The notes beneath the pieces were generated by a model, which had not been told where the DNA came from, made no database searches, and saw only the letters and a program-made list of their open reading frames with translations. Below, one piece after another: positions 661 through 39,115 of a stretch of 39,115 nucleotides of DNA. Source of the stretch: a virus (lineage: Duplodnaviria > Caudoviricetes); the IMG/VR virus record IMGVR_UViG_3300020592_000107, positions 1-39,115 of that record. One strand, given 5' to 3'. Numbering within the stretch: position 1 is the stretch's first letter; every line of letters starts with the position of its first letter. The position numbers were made by a program, and so were the translations under genes.

Positions 661-918
661 GCTCGGGCAACGCGCTCTTCTCGTTCTGGTCAACAGATCT
701 CGGCCTCAACCATCTCCTGCCGTGAGGTCGACCCCGCGGGGATGTCGGTCGTTCGGTTGCCTCGCTCCCGGATTTGACCTCGACGACATGTTCCTGATGA
801 GAGCGAGACGCCCCTCTCACGGGTTTCTGGTCACCAATGTGGTCACTGGACGCCAGATCGCGGCGCCGACGGAGCGAGGAGGGAGCCGGAATTCCTAGAG
901 AACTCCAGCGATTCGTTG

Positions 919-966
919 CTGGGGTGCCTGGACTCGAACCAAGAACAACTGAACCAGAATCAGCCG
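919..966 (-). other. Prophage att core: displaced 3' half of tRNA-Gln(CTG)
   Basis: The minus strand reads CGGCTGATTCTGGTTCAGTTGTTCTTGGTTCGAGTCCAGGCACCCCAG: anticodon arm (CTG), T-arm and 3' acceptor strand. No D-arm or 5' acceptor strand lies upstream. Confidence 0.85.
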
Positions 967-26965: not shown

Positions 26966-27738
26966 CCTCTACGTCGGGGACCGCCTCGGCTTCGGCCTTC
27001 CATTGCCGCGCTCGGGTCGATCATCCGGTCCAGGAGGTCAAGGGCAGAAGCCTGCAATGCCTCGATGGTGGGTTGAAGTACGTCCCTGGCAGCGTCCCCG
27101 GCAGCGTCCCTGGCAGCGGCCCCGGCAGCGTCCCAGGCAGCGTCCCAGGCAGCGCCCCAGGCAGCGGCCCCGGCAGCGTCCCTGGCAGCGTCCCTGGCAG
27201 CGTCCCTGGCAGCGTCCCCGGCAGCGGCCCAGGCAGCGGCCCCGGCAGCGCCCCTGGCAGCGCCCCTGGCAGCGGCCCAGGCAGCGTCCCCGGCAGCGGC
27301 CGCTCGCGCCCGAACCGAAAGCACAACCGGACCAGCGCTCTCGGCCGTAGCCATGTCCACGATGCGCCGCAGCGACCGCAACTCCGTCGCCTCAGTGGTC
27401 AATCCCGCGAGGTCAAGCCAGGCCGGAGTGAACGTGCGGATCAGCCAGTCCAACGCGAGATACGACCGGGCCTCATCCTGACCGTCGCCCGCTGTCCCCA
27501 CCATGCGAGGCAGGAGCGGGATCAGCTTCTGTCGCTGCTCGTGGCCCCACTGGTCGTTGAGGTTGATCGTGAAGTCACGCAGCACGGGAGAGGCGCACTC
27601 GGGGCAGTCCGTATGTCCCAGACCGGCAAGCCACGCCACGACCTCCATTGCGCAGTGCCCAGACTCAAAATCATCATGGGCGCCCTCCGCAAGCGTGATG
27701 GTGTCAAGCGCGTCCAGGCGCTCCTGAATGATCGTCAT
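26959..27738 (-). CDS. Protein with Ala-rich AA(W/R/G)(D/A/G) tetrapeptide repeats
   Basis: N-terminal [21 protein letters not shown] domain followed by a repeat tract. Confidence 0.7.
27081..27300. repeat. 12-bp coding tandem repeat (about 18 copies)
   Basis: Units of the form GGCAGCG(T/G/C)CCC(T/A/C). Confidence 0.9.
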
Positions 27739-28149: not shown

Positions 28150-29277
28150 TCATGCCGCCACCACCTTTCCGCCACGCAGCGTGTAGAACACATCCGCCTT
28201 GATGCGCTTCCCGTCGACCTTCACCGTCTCCACGGCGACGATCTTGTACTCCTCGTCGCGCTCAGTAAGCACCAGCCAAGCCCCGACAGTGCCACTCGCC
28301 TCGCCCTTGTATCCGGTGGCGATCGCGAGGGCGTCGGCACCGCTGGCGGTGGCCTTGGAGTAGGAGCCCGTGACGAGCGCCGCCGAACGGTCGCCCGTGT
28401 TCGACGCCACCGAGCGGTTGCCCGTGTTTGACGCCGCCGAGCAGTTGCCCGTGTTCGACGCCGCCGAACGGTAGCCCGTGTTCGACGCCACCGAGTAGTC
28501 GCCCGTGTTCGACGCCGCCGAGTGGTAGCCCGTGTTCGACGCCACCGAGCAGTCGCCCGTGTTCGACGCCGCCGAGTGGTAGCCCGTGTTCGACGCCACC
28601 GAGCAGTCGCCCGTGTTCGACGCCACCGAGTAGTCGCCCGTGTTCGACGCCGCCGAGCAGTTGCCCGTGTTTGACGCCACCGAACGGTCGCCCGTGTTTG
28701 ACGCCACCGAACGGTCGCCAGTGTTCGACGCCGCCGAACGGTCGCCCGTGTTCGACGCCACCGAGCAGTTGCCCGTGTTTGACGCCACCGAACGGTCGCC
28801 CGTGTTTGACGCCACCGAACGGTCGCCAGTGTTCGACGCCGCCGAACGGTCGCCCGTGTTCGACGCCACCGAGTAGTTGCCAGTGTTCGACGCCACCGAA
28901 CGGTCATCGGTCTTGTGTGCGGACTTCTTGCCATCCGGCTTGATCCCCGCCCTCACAACCTCGACGTGCGCCTTCACCAGCCCAGGGATGCCGATCTCCG
29001 CGCCAATCGTGATCGTCCGACCGGCAACCTTCGAATCGGATTCGCGCTCCTCCGACACATCACCCAACTCCACGAGCCGGTACACCGACTCCGCAGGCGG
29101 GTAGTAGGCGAACACGTCCAACGGGGAAGTGACAGCGTGGAACCCCGACACGCACAGCTTCGCCGGAGTGTCCTGCTCGTAGGTCTTGCCTTCCTCGTAC
29201 TGGAACCCGCGGCACGTCATATCCGCGTTGAAACCCTTGAACGCCGTCACACGGTCGCCCTCTGAAAACTTCGTCAT
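28150..29277 (-). CDS. Phage protein with nonapeptide (ASNTGxxS) beta-solenoid repeats
   Basis: N-terminal FKGFNADMTCRGFQYEEG...GFHA domain, 19 repeats, C-terminal VDGKRIKADVFYTL. Confidence 0.8.
   Translation of the reverse strand: MTKFSEGDRVTAFKGFNADMTCRGFQYEEGKTYEQDTPAKLCVSGFHAVTSPLDVFAYYPPAESVYRLVELGDVSEERESDSKVAGRTITIGAEIGIPGLVKAHVEVVRAGIKPDGKKSAHKTDDRSVASNTGNYSVASNTGDRSAASNTGDRSVASNTGDRSVASNTGNCSVASNTGDRSAASNTGDRSVASNTGDRSVASNTGNCSAASNTGDYSVASNTGDCSVASNTGYHSAASNTGDCSVASNTGYHSAASNTGDYSVASNTGYRSAASNTGNCSAASNTGNRSVASNTGDRSAALVTGSYSKATASGADALAIATGYKGEASGTVGAWLVLTERDEEYKIVAVETVKVDGKRIKADVFYTLRGGKVVAA
28380..28905. repeat. 27-bp coding tandem repeat (19 copies)
   Basis: GTGTT(C/T)GACGCC(A/G)CCGA core recurs every 27 bp. 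Confidence 0.92.
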
Positions 29278-34670: not shown

Positions 34671-34708
34671 AACAGCCCCCTTTCGGGCATGAGTCAGCCA
34701 TGAGTGAG

Positions 34709-34790
34709 TGCCGGTCCCGGGACTCGAACCCGGACGCCTGAGGGGCGGCGCATTTTGAGTGCGCTGCGTCTGCCATTCCGCCAGACCGGC
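34709..34790 (-). tRNA. tRNA-Leu(CAA), phage-encoded
   Basis: GCCGGTC/GACCGGC-A acceptor; TGGCGGAATGGCAGACGC D-arm; GCGCA-CTCAAAA-TGCGC anticodon arm; long variable arm; CCGGG-TTCGAGT-CCCGG T-arm. Confidence 0.93.
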
Positions 34791-35864: not shown

Positions 35865-36008
35865 TCAGAGACGAGGAACCCCGTCTAGCCGGTCCAACAC
35901 GGACCCGTGCACACCGTCCAGATGCGACCGCAGAGCCTCCAGCTCCGCGAACACCGGCCGGTCCGCACAGGTCAGACACGTCACGGAGCGGTCCCCATTG
36001 ATCCGCAT
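35865..36008 (-). CDS. 47-aa C2H2 zinc-finger-like protein (not in ORF track)
   Basis: MRINGDRSVTCLTCADRPVFAELEALRSHLDGVHGSVLDRLDGVPRL; ATG overlaps the upstream stop (TGATG). Confidence 0.65.
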   Translation of the reverse strand: MRINGDRSVTCLTCADRPVFAELEALRSHLDGVHGSVLDRLDGVPRL

Positions 36009-36256
36009 CACGACGCACGCTCCGGCTTCTCGGCTGGGAGCCCGAAAGTCCGCTCCTCAAGGAATCGGTTCAGCTCGGACGCCGGAACCCGCTGGTTCCC
36101 CTTGCCCGTCCCGAGCTCGACCACCCTCTGGAAGGTGCCGTCTTTGATCCGGTCATAAACCCACTGCACCGACACGTCCAGCAGCTCAGCGACCTTCGCC
36201 ACCTTGTAATGCGGCTCCACGACGGTCGTCCCGGTCGTCTCACTGGTGAGAGTCAT
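36008..36256 (-). CDS. Excisionase-like HTH protein
   Basis: YKVAKVAELLDVSVQWVYDRIKDG...RVPASELNRFL. Confidence 0.8.
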   Translation of the reverse strand: MTLTSETTGTTVVEPHYKVAKVAELLDVSVQWVYDRIKDGTFQRVVELGTGKGNQRVPASELNRFLEERTFGLPAEKPERAS

Positions 36257-37017
36257 GCCGCCACCGCCTTGTTGAGGTACCGGTTCACGAAGTACGCCTG
36301 ACCCTTCCCGGTCACCTTCGGCGTCTTCGATACCGTCACGTGACCATCCGAGTGAGTGACAGCGGTCTCCTTGATCTCGAACAGGCCCAGCTCCATTGCC
36401 TTCTGTGTGGGCATGTTCCAGTCCGAACCCTTCCGCTTGATGAGGTACCCGTCCGCGCGGAGGTCATCGAAAAGCCGGTTCTGCCCGACCTCGAGACCGT
36501 TCGCGCGAAGGATCTTCGCCAGCTCACCAACGAGGATCGTGGACCGTGACGCGGCCACTGAATCCGCGAACAACACCTTCGGCTTCGCAGCCTCCAGTTC
36601 ACGCTCCGCCTCCTCGGCACGCTTCGCCGCCTCAGCCGCCAGCGCGAGAAGCTTCGACGACGGAAGCGCCGCCAGCATCTCCACATCCGAGCCATACCGG
36701 CCCGTCTTGCGGATCGTCGGGAGAACGTCACTCGTGATCCAGCGACGGAAGGCCACAGCTTCGGGCTTGTCGGAGCGCAGCACGACCTCGTACATGCCGG
36801 CCTCGGACACGATGGTCGTGTGCTGGACGCCTCCAGCAGTCGGAAGGGGGTACGTCTGGCGTACCCCCTCATCGAGGCGGTCCTTGATCTGCGATGCCGC
36901 CCGCGACAGGCCGAGCACGCGAGCGAGGTCGTTGAGCACGAACCACGGCTCACCGTCGATCGTCACGACCCGGACCTCGCGCCCGGAGTAGCTGAACGGT
37001 ACGATGTTGTTTGACAT
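36253..37017 (-). CDS. Phage antirepressor (BRO-N plus KilAC/ANT)
   Basis: VRVVTIDGEPWFV...SEAGMYEVVLRSDKPEA (BRO-N); PKVLFADSV...GQNRLF...TPKVTGKGQ (KilAC). Confidence 0.93.
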   Translation of the reverse strand: MSNNIVPFSYSGREVRVVTIDGEPWFVLNDLARVLGLSRAASQIKDRLDEGVRQTYPLPTAGGVQHTTIVSEAGMYEVVLRSDKPEAVAFRRWITSDVLPTIRKTGRYGSDVEMLAALPSSKLLALAAEAAKRAEEAERELEAAKPKVLFADSVAASRSTILVGELAKILRANGLEVGQNRLFDDLRADGYLIKRKGSDWNMPTQKAMELGLFEIKETAVTHSDGHVTVSKTPKVTGKGQAYFVNRYLNKAVAA

Positions 37018-37056
37018 GAAAGTCCTTACCTTTCGTGTTCTGAGGCCGTCGCGCTG

Positions 37057-37299
37057 CTACGCGGCGGCCTTCTCCATTGCCCGACTGTCCGCAAGGAACT
37101 CGGCGGCGCTCATCCCGAGCGCGTCAGCGACGGCAATCACCTCGCGCATCGTCCAGCCGTGCCCGTTGCGGAAGCGGCGGTCGAGCGTCGCGTAGGGGAT
37201 GCCGGTCATCTCCGCGAGCTTCTTCTTGGACAGCCCGGAGCGAGTGAAGGCGTAGGCGATACGCGCTGCTGCCTCTTCGGCTGCTCGGTTGATATCCAT
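37057..37299 (-). CDS. Cro-like XRE HTH regulator
   Basis: GLSKKKLAEMTGIPYATLDRRF; divergent from the repressor; first gene of the lytic operon. Confidence 0.85.
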   Translation of the reverse strand: MDINRAAEEAAARIAYAFTRSGLSKKKLAEMTGIPYATLDRRFRNGHGWTMREVIAVADALGMSAAEFLADSRAMEKAAA

Positions 37300-37394
37300 A
37301 CAGATACCTAAGCACCCTGTTCGGGTCCTGTCAAGTCCCAGAATCCATCTGTTTGGAGCTTGCAAGTATCCACTATGGGTAGTAGAGTGCCCAT
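37300..37394. promoter_or_regulatory. Divergent lysis/lysogeny promoters with operators
   Basis: Plus strand: TTGCAA(37360)-17-TAGAGT(37383)-6-ATG. Minus strand: TTGACA(37334)...TAGGTA close to the cro ATG. Palindromes ACCC-N5-GGGT (37314-37326) and TATCC-N5-GGGTA (37367-37381). Confidence 0.7.
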
Positions 37395-37640
37395 ATGGTT
37401 ACTGACGGAAGAGCAGAGGCGCAGGCGCTCGCCGCCCAGCTTCGCGCGGAACGTGCAGCAGCGGGACTGACGATCGACCAGCTCTCCGAGGCGTCCGGCG
37501 TCCCCAAGCAGACCTTGATGCGCTACTTGAAGGGGACGCGCGACATTCCAATGTCCACGTTCTACGCCCTAGCCGAGGGGCTCGGCCTCCCCGCCGAGAC
37601 GATCCTCGCGCGAGCTGAGGGGCGATACCGCCAGGGCTGA
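37395..37640 (+). CDS. Immunity repressor (XRE HTH, 81 aa, no S24 peptidase domain)
   Basis: LRAERAAAGLTIDQLSEASGVPKQTLMRYLKG; between cro and the integrase. Confidence 0.85.
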   Translation: MVTDGRAEAQALAAQLRAERAAAGLTIDQLSEASGVPKQTLMRYLKGTRDIPMSTFYALAEGLGLPAETILARAEGRYRQG

Positions 37641-37757
37641 CCATGGCACCCGCAGGCATGTCGCGGCGACAATCAAGTCCCGCACCGTCGCGCGCGCGTC
37701 CCGACGCAGGACCTCCGAAAGGTCACGAATCACCTGACCGTCCACACAGACCCCCAT
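37569..37757 (-). CDS. Putative DNA-damage-induced small antirepressor (half-HTH)
   Basis: ATG immediately follows the SOS box. LSEVLRRDARATVRDLIVAATCLRVPWSAL resembles XRE helices 3-5. Confidence 0.5.
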   Translation of the reverse strand: MGVCVDGQVIRDLSEVLRRDARATVRDLIVAATCLRVPWSALAVSPLSSREDRLGGEAEPLG

Positions 37758-37795
37758 TCGAATCTTTGTTCGAACGGTAGCGTGACCCCCCGACA
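37758..37795 (-). promoter_or_regulatory. RecA-NDp (PafBC-type) promoter plus LexA SOS box
   Basis: The minus strand reads TGTCGG-GGGGTCACGC-TACCGT followed directly by TCGAACAAAGATTCGA. Confidence 0.75.
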
Positions 37796-37942
37796 TCCCA
37801 CCCACCACTACCCGAGTAGACAGGAACCTCCCATGACCGCAGTTCCTCTACAGCCTCTTCATCGCCCTCGGCATCGCGATCGCGTACTCAACGAGCCTCG
37901 AGCCGACACCGGTCAGTGGGTGCACCGGGAACAGGTCGCCTG

Positions 37943-39115
37943 ATGGCGCGTAACGCGAAGGGTGAGGGGTCGGCTTTCAAGACGGACAGCGGCTACCGCG
38001 GGTACGTCACCGTCAACGGGAAACGCCGCTACTTCTCCGCGAAGACGAAAGCGGAAGCCGCGCAGAAGAAACGTCAACTCCTCAACCAGCGTGACACCAC
38101 CGGCCTCGCGACGGGGAAGGGGTACACGCTCGGACAGTGGTTGGAACATTGGCTGTCGATCACCAAGTCATCCCACAAGCCGAAGACGCACTCCGGGTAC
38201 ACGTACATGGTGGAGCACTACCTGTCGGAACCCTTCAAAGCCACTCCCCTGGCGAAGCTCACCGTGGAGCGCATCGAAGCGGAGTATCAGCGCCTCGCGG
38301 ATGCGGGGCTGTCCGGGTCCACCCGAGCGCAGGCGCACTCCATCATCCACACGGCGTTGAAGGTCGCTCAGCAGCGCGGGCACATCGGCATCAACTTCGC
38401 CGCACTCGTGGTCGACAAGCCCCGAGCCGAGCGGAAGAAGGTGCACCCGCTGTCCGAGGCGGACGTGCTCGCCATCGAAGCAACACTCGCGGGGAACCGG
38501 CTCGAAGCGCGATGGCTGATTGGCCTCGACCTCGGCATCCGGCCCGGTGAGGCCCTCGCGATCGAGTGGACTGACATCGACTTCGACGCGGGGACGCTGC
38601 ACATCCACCAGCAGCTCCAGAAGGTGGACAAGAAGGTCATCCTCGTGCCGACCCCGAAGACGGACGCCGGTAACCGGACGATCCCCCTCCCCGGCTATCT
38701 GCTGGAGAAGTTGAAGGAGCATCGCCGCCAGCAGATGGTGGAGATGCTGTCCGAGAAGTGGGAACCGTGGTCACCGGATGGGAAGCCGCACGCGTGGGCT
38801 TTCACGTCGCAGAGGAACCCCGGCCGGCCAGTGACAGACGACGGGGACTCGACCCAGTGGCGGAAGATTCTCACGGCGGCTGGGGTGCCCCACACGCGCA
38901 GGTACACGGCACGTCACACCGCCGCGTCGGTGCTGATCTCGAAGGGCGTGGACCCGGCCACCGTGGCGATGATCCTCGGACACAACGACCCTGGTTTCAC
39001 GATGCGGACCTACGTGCACGGCATCGACGAGAGGGTGCAGGCCGCGGTCGCGCTACTGGATAAGGTGCAGAATAAGGTGCAGCAGCCTGGCGAGGCAGAG
39101 AGGCAACCATCCTGA
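37943..39115 (+). CDS. int: Tyrosine integrase
   Basis: N-terminal arm-binding domain (RNAKGEGS); catalytic IRPGE, PKT, YTARH, LGH and TYVH motifs. Confidence 0.95.
   Translation: MARNAKGEGSAFKTDSGYRGYVTVNGKRRYFSAKTKAEAAQKKRQLLNQRDTTGLATGKGYTLGQWLEHWLSITKSSHKPKTHSGYTYMVEHYLSEPFKATPLAKLTVERIEAEYQRLADAGLSGSTRAQAHSIIHTALKVAQQRGHIGINFAALVVDKPRAERKKVHPLSEADVLAIEATLAGNRLEARWLIGLDLGIRPGEALAIEWTDIDFDAGTLHIHQQLQKVDKKVILVPTPKTDAGNRTIPLPGYLLEKLKEHRRQQMVEMLSEKWEPWSPDGKPHAWAFTSQRNPGRPVTDDGDSTQWRKILTAAGVPHTRRYTARHTAASVLISKGVDPATVAMILGHNDPGFTMRTYVHGIDERVQAAVALLDKVQNKVQQPGEAERQPS
39060..39082 (+). repeat. Integrase arm-type binding repeats (right, within the 3' end of int)
   Basis: ATAAGGTGCAGAATAAGGTGCAG, matching 1055-1077. 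Confidence 0.75.

What the first reader, a model, noticed from the sequence alone, without database searches (positions are those of the whole stretch)
37569..37795. Dual PafBC/LexA DNA-damage switch driving a half-HTH ORF against a non-cleavable repressor
Seen: between repressor and integrase the minus strand has TGTCGG-N10-TACCGT (37795-37774), then TCGAACAAAGATTCGA (37773-37758), then ATG (37757). The resulting 62-aa ORF overlaps the repressor 3' end in antisense by 72 bp. Established: TGTCGG-N10-TANNNT is the actinobacterial RecA-NDp promoter activated by PafBC, and TCGAAC-N4-GTTCGA is the actinobacterial LexA box (one mismatch here). The 81-aa repressor has no S24 autopeptidase and no intact ImmA is visible, so another induction route is needed. 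The ORF (LSEVLRRDARATVRDLIVAATCLRVPWSAL) resembles the repressor's C-terminal helices (LMRYLKGTRDIPMSTFYALAEGLGLPAETIL) but lacks the first HTH helices. Inference: an AND-gated induction system using a dominant-negative repressor mimic and/or an antisense RNA.
Basis: partly seen in the sequence, partly recalled or inferred. Interest (0 to 1): 0.85.

Follow-up and report, generated by a model that had tools for sequence, protein, structure and literature searches.

The report
Damage-wired mini-Cro facing phage repressor
A Microbacterium-type prophage carries a conserved 58-codon gene behind sequence matches to both actinobacterial DNA-damage signals (PafBC and LexA); its product resembles the tail half of the phage's own Cro-like protein and likely wakes the prophage by binding a repressor that has no self-cleaving domain.

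Summary
The motifs are real and at the stated places. The tandem PafBC-motif + LexA-box occurs once in 39 kb and in 0 of 100 shuffles. The ORF is a conserved protein gene, with synonymous changes in M. karelineae and M. resistens prophages, but it likely starts at GTG 37745 (58 aa). The module recurs in Micrococcales prophages and cultured Arthrobacter phages. Of 46 short repressor relatives, 31 have a LexA-like box downstream and none has an HExxH protease nearby. Of 14 long-tailed relatives, none has the box and 12 have a Pfam-confirmed ImmA/IrrE gene. The ORF's core is closer to helices 4-5 of the phage's divergent Cro-like protein than to the repressor's (38 of 40 loci). The AND gate is not universal: PafBC-only and LexA-only versions exist. 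Overlap length varies from none to 207 nt, which argues against antisense RNA as the main effector. Best reading: a damage-induced antirepressor derived from Cro. It works like Bacillus AimX-AimC but is not a member. PafBC wiring and a Cro-derived effector were not found in my ten literature searches. Binding and induction are untested.

The parts
37774..37795 (-). PafBC (RecA-NDp) promoter motif: -26 element TGTCGG, N10, -10 element TACCGT
   Evidence: Only match in window; fits tGTCgg(N10)tA(N3)T (PMC8635444); spacer is 10 in 29 of 29 loci with a motif although 9-11 was allowed, 8 of them forced by the fetching pattern
37758..37773 (.). LexA (SOS) box, 1 mismatch to TCGAAC-N4-GTTCGA, abutting the -10 and covering the inferred transcription start
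   Evidence: Only <=1-mismatch box in window; same position in L001, L029; 31 of 46 short repressor relatives
37751..37755 (-). GGGGG ribosome-binding site for GTG 37745
   Evidence: Sequence; G-rich site between box and start in relatives
37569..37745 (-). 58-aa ORF, Cro-derived half-HTH, candidate antirepressor; last 72 bp antisense to the repressor 3' end
   Evidence: 44% and 51% identical to ORFs of L001 and L029; third-position-biased changes and no stops in this frame; AF2 helices 3-15, 21-30, 35-39
37635..37691 (-). Conserved 19-codon core matching XRE helices 4-5 (T-x-x-[ED]-x-x-x-x-A-x-x-x-[GR]-V-P)
37395..37640 (+). 81-aa XRE repressor, HTH only, likely leaderless (TAGAGT 6 nt before ATG)
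   Evidence: Pfam HTH_3/HTH_31, no S24; relatives annotated 'immunity repressor' in Arthrobacter phages
37057..37299 (-). 80-aa divergent Cro-like XRE protein, first gene of the early lytic operon; its helices 4-5 are what the small ORF resembles
   Evidence: Pfam HTH_3/HTH_26, phrog_4583
37943..39115 (+). Tyrosine integrase
   Evidence: PF00589, PF14659; phrog_1

Best explanation
The element is a conserved 58-codon gene behind PafBC and LexA motifs, pointing tail-to-tail at an HTH-only repressor, and it is likely a DNA-damage-induced antirepressor that would bind the repressor through a helix pair resembling the phage's Cro-like protein. Shown: motifs, gene conservation, absence of S24 and ImmA hits, mutual exclusion with ImmA in relatives, and greater likeness to Cro than to the repressor. 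Inferred from established biology: in the lysogen LexA sits on the start site and the promoter needs activated PafBC at the -26 element; damage activates PafBC (ssDNA) and clears LexA (RecA*), giving a burst of the small protein. Inferred and untested: the protein lacks XRE helices 1-2, so it cannot bind operators. It would pair with the repressor at the helix 4-5 surface and break the DNA-binding dimer. The divergent promoter then fires cro, ant and xis, and full-length Cro would hold the lytic state through the same contact (Mor-like).
For: Tandem motif in 0 of 100 shuffles. Coding selection: differences at codon positions 1/2/3 are 15/14/20, 14/11/24 and 11/15/21 over 35 codons; 12 residues are identical in all three versus 1-7 in the other five frames. 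Of 60 non-redundant repressor relatives not fetched by motif, a box lies within 300 nt in 31 of 46 short versus 0 of 14 long-tailed; control windows give 0/42, 1/40, 3/39, 2/40, and shuffles 84/4600. HExxH within 1.3 kb: 0 of 46 versus 12 of 14, 13 of 14 with a looser pattern; 12 of those 13 hit Peptidase_M78. The same promoter cassette sits directly before an M78 gene in L052 and L053. Graded series from near-full HTH (L012 passes HTH_3; Zucker gp41, Maja gp31, Shoya gp38 annotated HTH) to helix 4-5 only. ORF core versus own Cro 28.3 and own repressor 8.1 mean BLOSUM; Cro higher in 38 of 40, also with free register. Own-clade Cro beats permuted clades (0 of 20000, 16 clades) while fourfold sites are saturated (0.31 versus 0.30), so the likeness is kept at protein level. 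The two nearest host species have LexA and tandem or fused WYL (PafBC-like) genes. Precedent: AimX-AimC; CI:Mor.
Against: No transcript, binding or induction data. Likeness to Cro fits equally well a protein that poisons Cro. In this phage the Cro likeness is modest (17 versus 2; its clade's own Cro ranks 5th of 16), and without the first five core positions Cro wins in only 29 of 40, in positions 11-19 only 20 of 40. 10 of 46 short repressors show neither motif, so other routes exist. The box pattern was widened after seeing the Arthrobacter variant; strict <=1 mismatch gives 16 of 46. Later searches used profiles that included motif-fetched repressors, so sampling is not fully independent. 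The ImmA/long-tail state changes 5 times on the best tree, but well-supported branches do not exclude one origin. ORF cores were partly chosen by eye. The phage also has a Bro-N/KilAC 'antirepressor' in its lytic operon.
Confidence: 0.62

Rival explanations
1. The protein is a dominant-negative of Cro, not of the repressor: it pairs with Cro and damps or delays the lytic switch during damage, or tunes its threshold.
For: It resembles and co-varies with the cognate Cro. A fragment of a homodimer's interface most simply poisons that homodimer (inference).
Against: It leaves these phages with no induction route, yet the module stands where ImmA stands in long-tailed relatives, and the same cassette drives M78 proteases in L052 and L053.
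Confidence: 0.15
2. One reading: the protein copies the repressor's own C-terminal helices and forms a dead heterodimer (SinI/AimX style), with no role for a Cro-repressor contact.
For: Family profile aligns to repressor helices 3-5 (72%; 91% over 41 columns including the long helix 5). Own repressor scores above permuted ones (1 of 5000; 567 of 20000 at clade level).
Against: Cro scores higher in 38 of 40 loci. The window ORF scores 9.1 bits on the Cro profile, above all 279 reported of 300 shuffles, and gets no reported score on the repressor profile.
Confidence: 0.1
3. The damage-induced convergent transcript silences the repressor by antisense pairing or polymerase collision; the peptide is secondary.
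For: 72-bp overlap and no terminator-like site between the genes.
Against: Overlap varies from -25 to 207 nt; coding selection is clear; no Rfam match; in phi106 an aimX stop allele lost induction and recoding the overlap did not matter.
Confidence: 0.06
4. It is a damage-induced phage protein with another target (a host XRE regulator, a co-resident prophage's repressor, or integrase control), placed here by history.
For: Gifsy/Fels-1 antirepressors act on non-cognate repressors (PMC3121763 abstract).
Against: Co-variation with the cognate Cro and a core-to-repressor-stop distance of 43-61 nt in 35 of 40 loci tie it to this switch.
Confidence: 0.07

Closest known systems
AimX-AimC-AimL module of Bacillus phi106-family arbitrium phages (bioRxiv 10.1101/2025.11.23.689978; read: abstract, sections 7, 9, 10 and passages; supplements not seen)
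   Same: LexA site, then a 29-80 aa ORF convergent with and often overlapping a short repressor that does not respond to RecA; divergent cro-like gene; activator plus LexA dual input; protein rather than antisense RNA is the effector there.
   Different: Activator there is phage AimR, here host PafBC. AimX binds a separate C-terminal oligomerization domain, whereas this repressor is HTH only (81 aa). The sections read do not describe AimX as an HTH fragment; this ORF is a Cro-like helix 4-5 fragment. No aimR/aimP found here.
LexA-controlled antirepressors of Salmonella Gifsy-1/-3 (GfoA, GfhA) (PMC3121763; read: abstract and outline)
   Same: Non-cleavable repressor inactivated by a small protein under direct LexA control.
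   Different: [quoted passage not shown]
CI:Mor switch of lactococcal TP901-1 and staphylococcal phi13 (PMC11149083; read: passages)
   Same: The Cro-position HTH protein binds the repressor's HTH domain, using the repressor's helix 4 and C-terminal region; precedent for the Cro-repressor contact inferred here.
   Different: Mor is the full lytic-operon protein and its N-terminal aromatics (Tyr3, Tyr5) are part of the interface; no separate damage-induced Mor fragment appears in the passages read; those repressors have C-terminal domains.
ImmR/ImmA (ICEBs1-type; Peptidase_M78) induction
   Same: Same repressor family uses it in long-tailed relatives; two prophages put an M78 gene behind the same PafBC+LexA cassette.
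   Different: Absent here; this repressor lacks the acidic tail seen in the ImmA-linked relatives.
Host genes under both PafBC and LexA, such as recA, uvrA, uvrC (PMC8223512 passages; PMC8635444 passages)
   Same: Both motifs upstream of one gene.
   Different: Host repair genes; no prophage switch under PafBC was found in my searches.

Membership tests
PafBC-dependent promoter | tGTCgg(N10)tA(N3)T with the GTC triplet | tested here: met
   TGTCGG-N10-TACCGT; consensus from PMC8635444
PafBC-dependent promoter | Host encodes PafBC | tested here: inconclusive
   Host genome not held; nearest relatives G001 and G002 have tandem or fused WYL genes
PafBC-dependent promoter | PafBC-dependent, damage-induced transcription from the predicted start | not testable with these tools
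   Two soil RNA runs gave no contig over the ORF
Actinobacterial SOS box | TCGAAC(N4)GTTCGA, 0-1 mismatch, over the promoter | tested here: met
   1 mismatch, abuts the -10; consensus from PMC3381160
Actinobacterial SOS box | LexA binds it | not testable with these tools
   Needs gel shift or ChIP; LexA present in 2 of 2 nearest hosts
AimX-AimC-AimL extended arbitrium module | Small ORF behind LexA site, convergent with short repressor, divergent cro | tested here: met
AimX-AimC-AimL extended arbitrium module | aimR-aimP directly upstream of the small ORF | tested here: not met
   Upstream lie a 36-aa ORF and the integrase on the other strand
AimX-AimC-AimL extended arbitrium module | Repressor has a separate C-terminal oligomerization domain | tested here: not met
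   81 aa; the repressor profile covers it end to end
AimX-AimC-AimL extended arbitrium module | Sequence homology to AimX | not tested
   No AimX sequence was fetched
LexA-controlled small antirepressors (works-like class) | Direct binding to the repressor and release of DNA | not testable with these tools
XRE/Cro-C1 HTH family | Complete five-helix domain passing HTH_3/HTH_31 | tested here: not met
   No HTH hit for the window ORF; relative L012 passes HTH_3 at 23.5 bits
XRE/Cro-C1 HTH family | Homology to helices 3-5 | tested here: met
   hhalign 96% to the Cro alignment, 91% to the repressor alignment; best non-self hit in 401 genomes is the C-terminal half of an XRE protein, E 2e-4
XRE/Cro-C1 HTH family | Fold match of the model to XRE helices | tested here: inconclusive
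   No Foldseek hit at E<=0.001, best VIA Z 3.9
ImmR/ImmA | Peptidase_M78 gene beside a tailed repressor | tested here: not met

The most novel reading that the evidence does not exclude
A widespread Micrococcales phage family has plugged induction into the host's PafBC activator, with LexA as an optional second lock, and built its trigger by trimming a copy of cro down to the two helices that contact the repressor; this mini-Cro has repeatedly traded places with the ImmA protease, and living phages show every stage from full HTH to helix pair.
Probability: 0.4. Interest if true: 0.8.

Novelty: new variant of a known kind. Interest (0 to 1): 0.62.

Why it matters
My ten literature searches turned up no account of how temperate phages of Microbacterium and Arthrobacter with short, non-cleavable repressors sense DNA damage. 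This gives a specific gene, promoter and target to test in cultured, deposited phages (Zucker gp41, Maja gp31, Shoya gp38, ArV2 gp33; unannotated in Judy, Hestia and MargaretKali) on a harmless host. If true, it would tie prophage induction to PafBC, so that PafBC-only variants could be induced without RecA*. It would also show an antirepressor evolving from Cro and imply an unrecognised Cro-repressor contact. The general logic (LexA, small ORF, convergent repressor) is already known, which caps the interest.

Tried and rejected
Single-sequence searches found only the window's own protein and one more with a two-row profile; the ESM Atlas gave only hits under 0.9. blastn against GenBank phages: no match. 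BLASTP of ORF against repressor: nothing; the three-row profile against repressors: 2%. Fold searches of the 58-aa model were uninformative. Two soil metatranscriptome runs held 6 short contigs in 36000-39115, none over the ORF; no evidence on expression. The exact tandem pattern is not found in genomes G001 and G002, whose prophage copies are degenerate. Sigma-70 promoter, terminator and Rfam scans were empty. Rejected: ATG 37757 and GTG 37808 starts (no ribosome site; 37808 lies upstream of the promoter); recent duplication from cro (synonymous sites saturated). Rows dropped before the 60-locus count: the window, 8 motif-fetched loci, and L036, L124, L125 (other HTH types); 122 loci with a hit had first been collapsed to 72 at 90% identity. 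The three-way comparison used 40 of 42 loci (L072 and L087 had no usable Cro). Literature searches; most subscription papers are not in the library, and the AimX preprint's supplements (AimX sequences and models) were not seen and may bear on novelty.

Full report
Observation. The minus strand carries TGTCGG-N10-TACCGT (37795-37774), then TCGAACAAAGATTCGA (37773-37758), then an open frame ending at 37569, 72 bp inside the repressor gene. The first motif fits the PafBC consensus tGTCgg(N10)tA(N3)T (PMC8635444, passages). The second is one mismatch from TCGAAC(N4)GTTCGA (PMC3381160, passages). Each is the only match in 39 kb. Alone they are not rare (9 and 20 of 100 shuffles), but the abutting pair appears in 0 of 100 shuffles at up to 2 mismatches.

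Context. The window is a virus record with structural genes, an integrase, an excisionase-like HTH, a Bro-N/KilAC protein, an 80-aa Cro-like XRE gene and a divergent 81-aa XRE repressor with no S24 domain. No Peptidase_M78 hit was found in 79 further ORFs and my HExxH pattern found nothing in six frames. The nearest repressors are in Microbacterium resistens (69%) and M. karelineae (65%). Both genomes have LexA and tandem or fused WYL genes; the fused 662-aa protein of M. karelineae looks like PafBC (the name is my reading).

The ORF is a gene. Both close relatives have the box at the same place and a homologous ORF. Over the 35 codons outside the overlap the three align without gaps from GTG 37745. 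Changes favour third positions (15/14/20, 14/11/24, 11/15/21), and 12 residues are identical in all three against 1-7 in the other frames. GTG 37745 has a GGGGG site 5 nt upstream, matching the G-rich site between box and start in relatives. The protein is therefore likely 58 aa, not 62. It has no meaningful Pfam, PHROG or NCBIfam hit. A profile of 16 such ORFs finds 32 representatives at E<=0.001, 28 of them under 90 aa.

The module is widespread and excludes ImmA. I gathered loci by repressor similarity and by motif. 122 loci with a repressor hit collapsed to 72; removing the window, 8 motif-fetched loci and 3 unrelated HTH hits left 60. A LexA-like box lies within 300 nt of the stop in 31 of 46 short repressors (16 at strict <=1 mismatch; the wider pattern admits the TAGAAC half-site that I saw in Arthrobacter phages) and 0 of 14 with a tail of 30 residues or more. 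Control windows gave 0/42, 1/40, 3/39 and 2/40. An HExxH gene follows 12 of 14 tailed and 0 of 46 short repressors; a looser pattern adds L116, 12 of these 13 hit Peptidase_M78, and the last, L063, has an annotated metallo-protease about 1.7 kb on. On the repressor tree the tailed state changes 5 times, but strong branches do not rule out a single origin, and later search profiles included motif-fetched sequences. In L052 and L053 the same promoter cassette sits directly before an M78 gene, which links the cassette to repressor inactivation. Cultured Arthrobacter phages annotate the convergent gene (Zucker gp41, Maja gp31, Shoya gp38 as HTH; ArV2 gp33 as hypothetical); Judy, Hestia and MargaretKali have it unannotated.

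The dual input is common, not universal. 20 of the 31 boxed short repressors also have the PafBC motif. The spacer is exactly 10 in all 29 loci with a motif although 9-11 was allowed; 8 of these were forced by the fetching pattern. Five unboxed loci (L031, L070, L073, L077, L079) keep the PafBC motif before the ORF, and L001 keeps the box without a motif match. Ten of 46 show neither. In this phage both are intact, so AND logic is a fair inference here.

What the protein resembles. Members range from near-full HTH (L012 passes HTH_3) to 35-45 residues holding only two helices. The window's model has helices 3-15, 21-30 and 35-39 (mean pLDDT 77.5), aligning to XRE helices 3, 4 and 5; helices 1-2 are missing. 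The family aligns to repressors (72%; 91%) but better to the divergent Cro-like proteins (96%). In 40 loci with all three genes the 19-residue core scores 28.3 against its own Cro and 8.1 against its own repressor, Cro higher in 38, also with free register. The signal is concentrated in helix 4: ORF and Cro share T-x-x-E where repressors have P-x-x-A. Without the first five positions Cro wins in 29 of 40, and in positions 11-19 in 20 of 40. Own Cro beats permuted Cro at clade level (16 clades, 0 of 20000), with saturated fourfold sites (0.31 versus 0.30), so this is not a recent copy. For the window's own clade the effect is modest (rank 5 of 16). Cores were partly picked by eye.

Mechanism. 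Established: PafBC adapts SigA polymerase to promoters with a -26 element once it senses ssDNA, and LexA is cleared through RecA (PMC8223512, passages). Inferred: damage switches on the small protein, which lacks a complete HTH and binds the repressor at its helix 4-5 surface, as Mor binds CI helix 4 in TP901-1 (PMC11149083, passages). That XRE proteins of this size dimerise through these helices is recalled; the nearest solved relatives are C.BclI, C.AhdI and ClgR. The rival, that it poisons Cro, explains the likeness as well but leaves no induction route. Antisense action is weak: overlap varies from -25 to 207 nt, and in phi106 the transcript without protein was inert.

Comparison. It works like AimX-AimC-AimL (bioRxiv 10.1101/2025.11.23.689978; abstract, sections 7, 9, 10) and, more loosely, the Gifsy antirepressors (PMC3121763 abstract). 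It is not a member: no aimR/aimP, and no C-terminal oligomerization domain. Earlier scan notes report the same layout in other phyla (unchecked), so the layout is not new. A PafBC-wired prophage switch or a Cro-fragment antirepressor did not appear in the listings of ten searches. PMC9030533 (passages) describes an IrrE-bearing Microbacterium prophage, the other route. PMC6789036 and PMC2897130 (passages) added only background.

Verdict. Real and conserved; new variant of a known kind; antirepressor reading 0.62; interest 0.62.

Noticed in passing
window 37833-37943 (+): 36-aa ORF with a good ribosome site whose stop overlaps the integrase ATG (TGATG); no Pfam, PHROG or NCBIfam hit. Possibly a translational-coupling leader or a remnant of the accessory gene found here in L029.
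   Followed up: partly
window 37290-37400: Repeated TATCCA/ATCCA half-sites between cro and repressor, shared with L001 and L029, one overlapping each start codon: candidate operators. Repressor genes of this family look leaderless.
   Followed up: partly
window about 912-965 (-), 1056-1078 and 39061-39083: A tRNA-like 3' fragment (my reading; ARAGORN did not call it) followed by a direct repeat that recurs inside the integrase 3' end: likely attachment core and arm-type sites; 1-900 would be host DNA (AbiEi-type regulator).
   Followed up: partly
window 28223-29032 and 27033-27344: Long tandem arrays, 27-nt units inside a DUF7666 gene and 12-nt units in the next gene.
   Followed up: no
window 34708-34790 (-): Phage tRNA-Leu(CAA) in the early region; three HNH_3 endonuclease genes and a WhiB gene also present.
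   Followed up: no
L052:2001-2037 and L053:2001-2037: Same PafBC+LexA cassette placed directly before an ImmA/IrrE (Peptidase_M78) gene, suggesting transcriptionally damage-induced ImmA in other actinobacterial prophages.
   Followed up: partly
L051, L055, L056: The cassette also precedes unrelated genes (an unknown ORF; an HD-like gene by eye in L056), so it is a portable damage promoter.
   Followed up: no
L057-L064 (Arthrobacter phages): Box has a TAG(A/T)AC left half-site and sits 5-11 nt below the -10, unlike the abutting Microbacterium form.
   Followed up: partly
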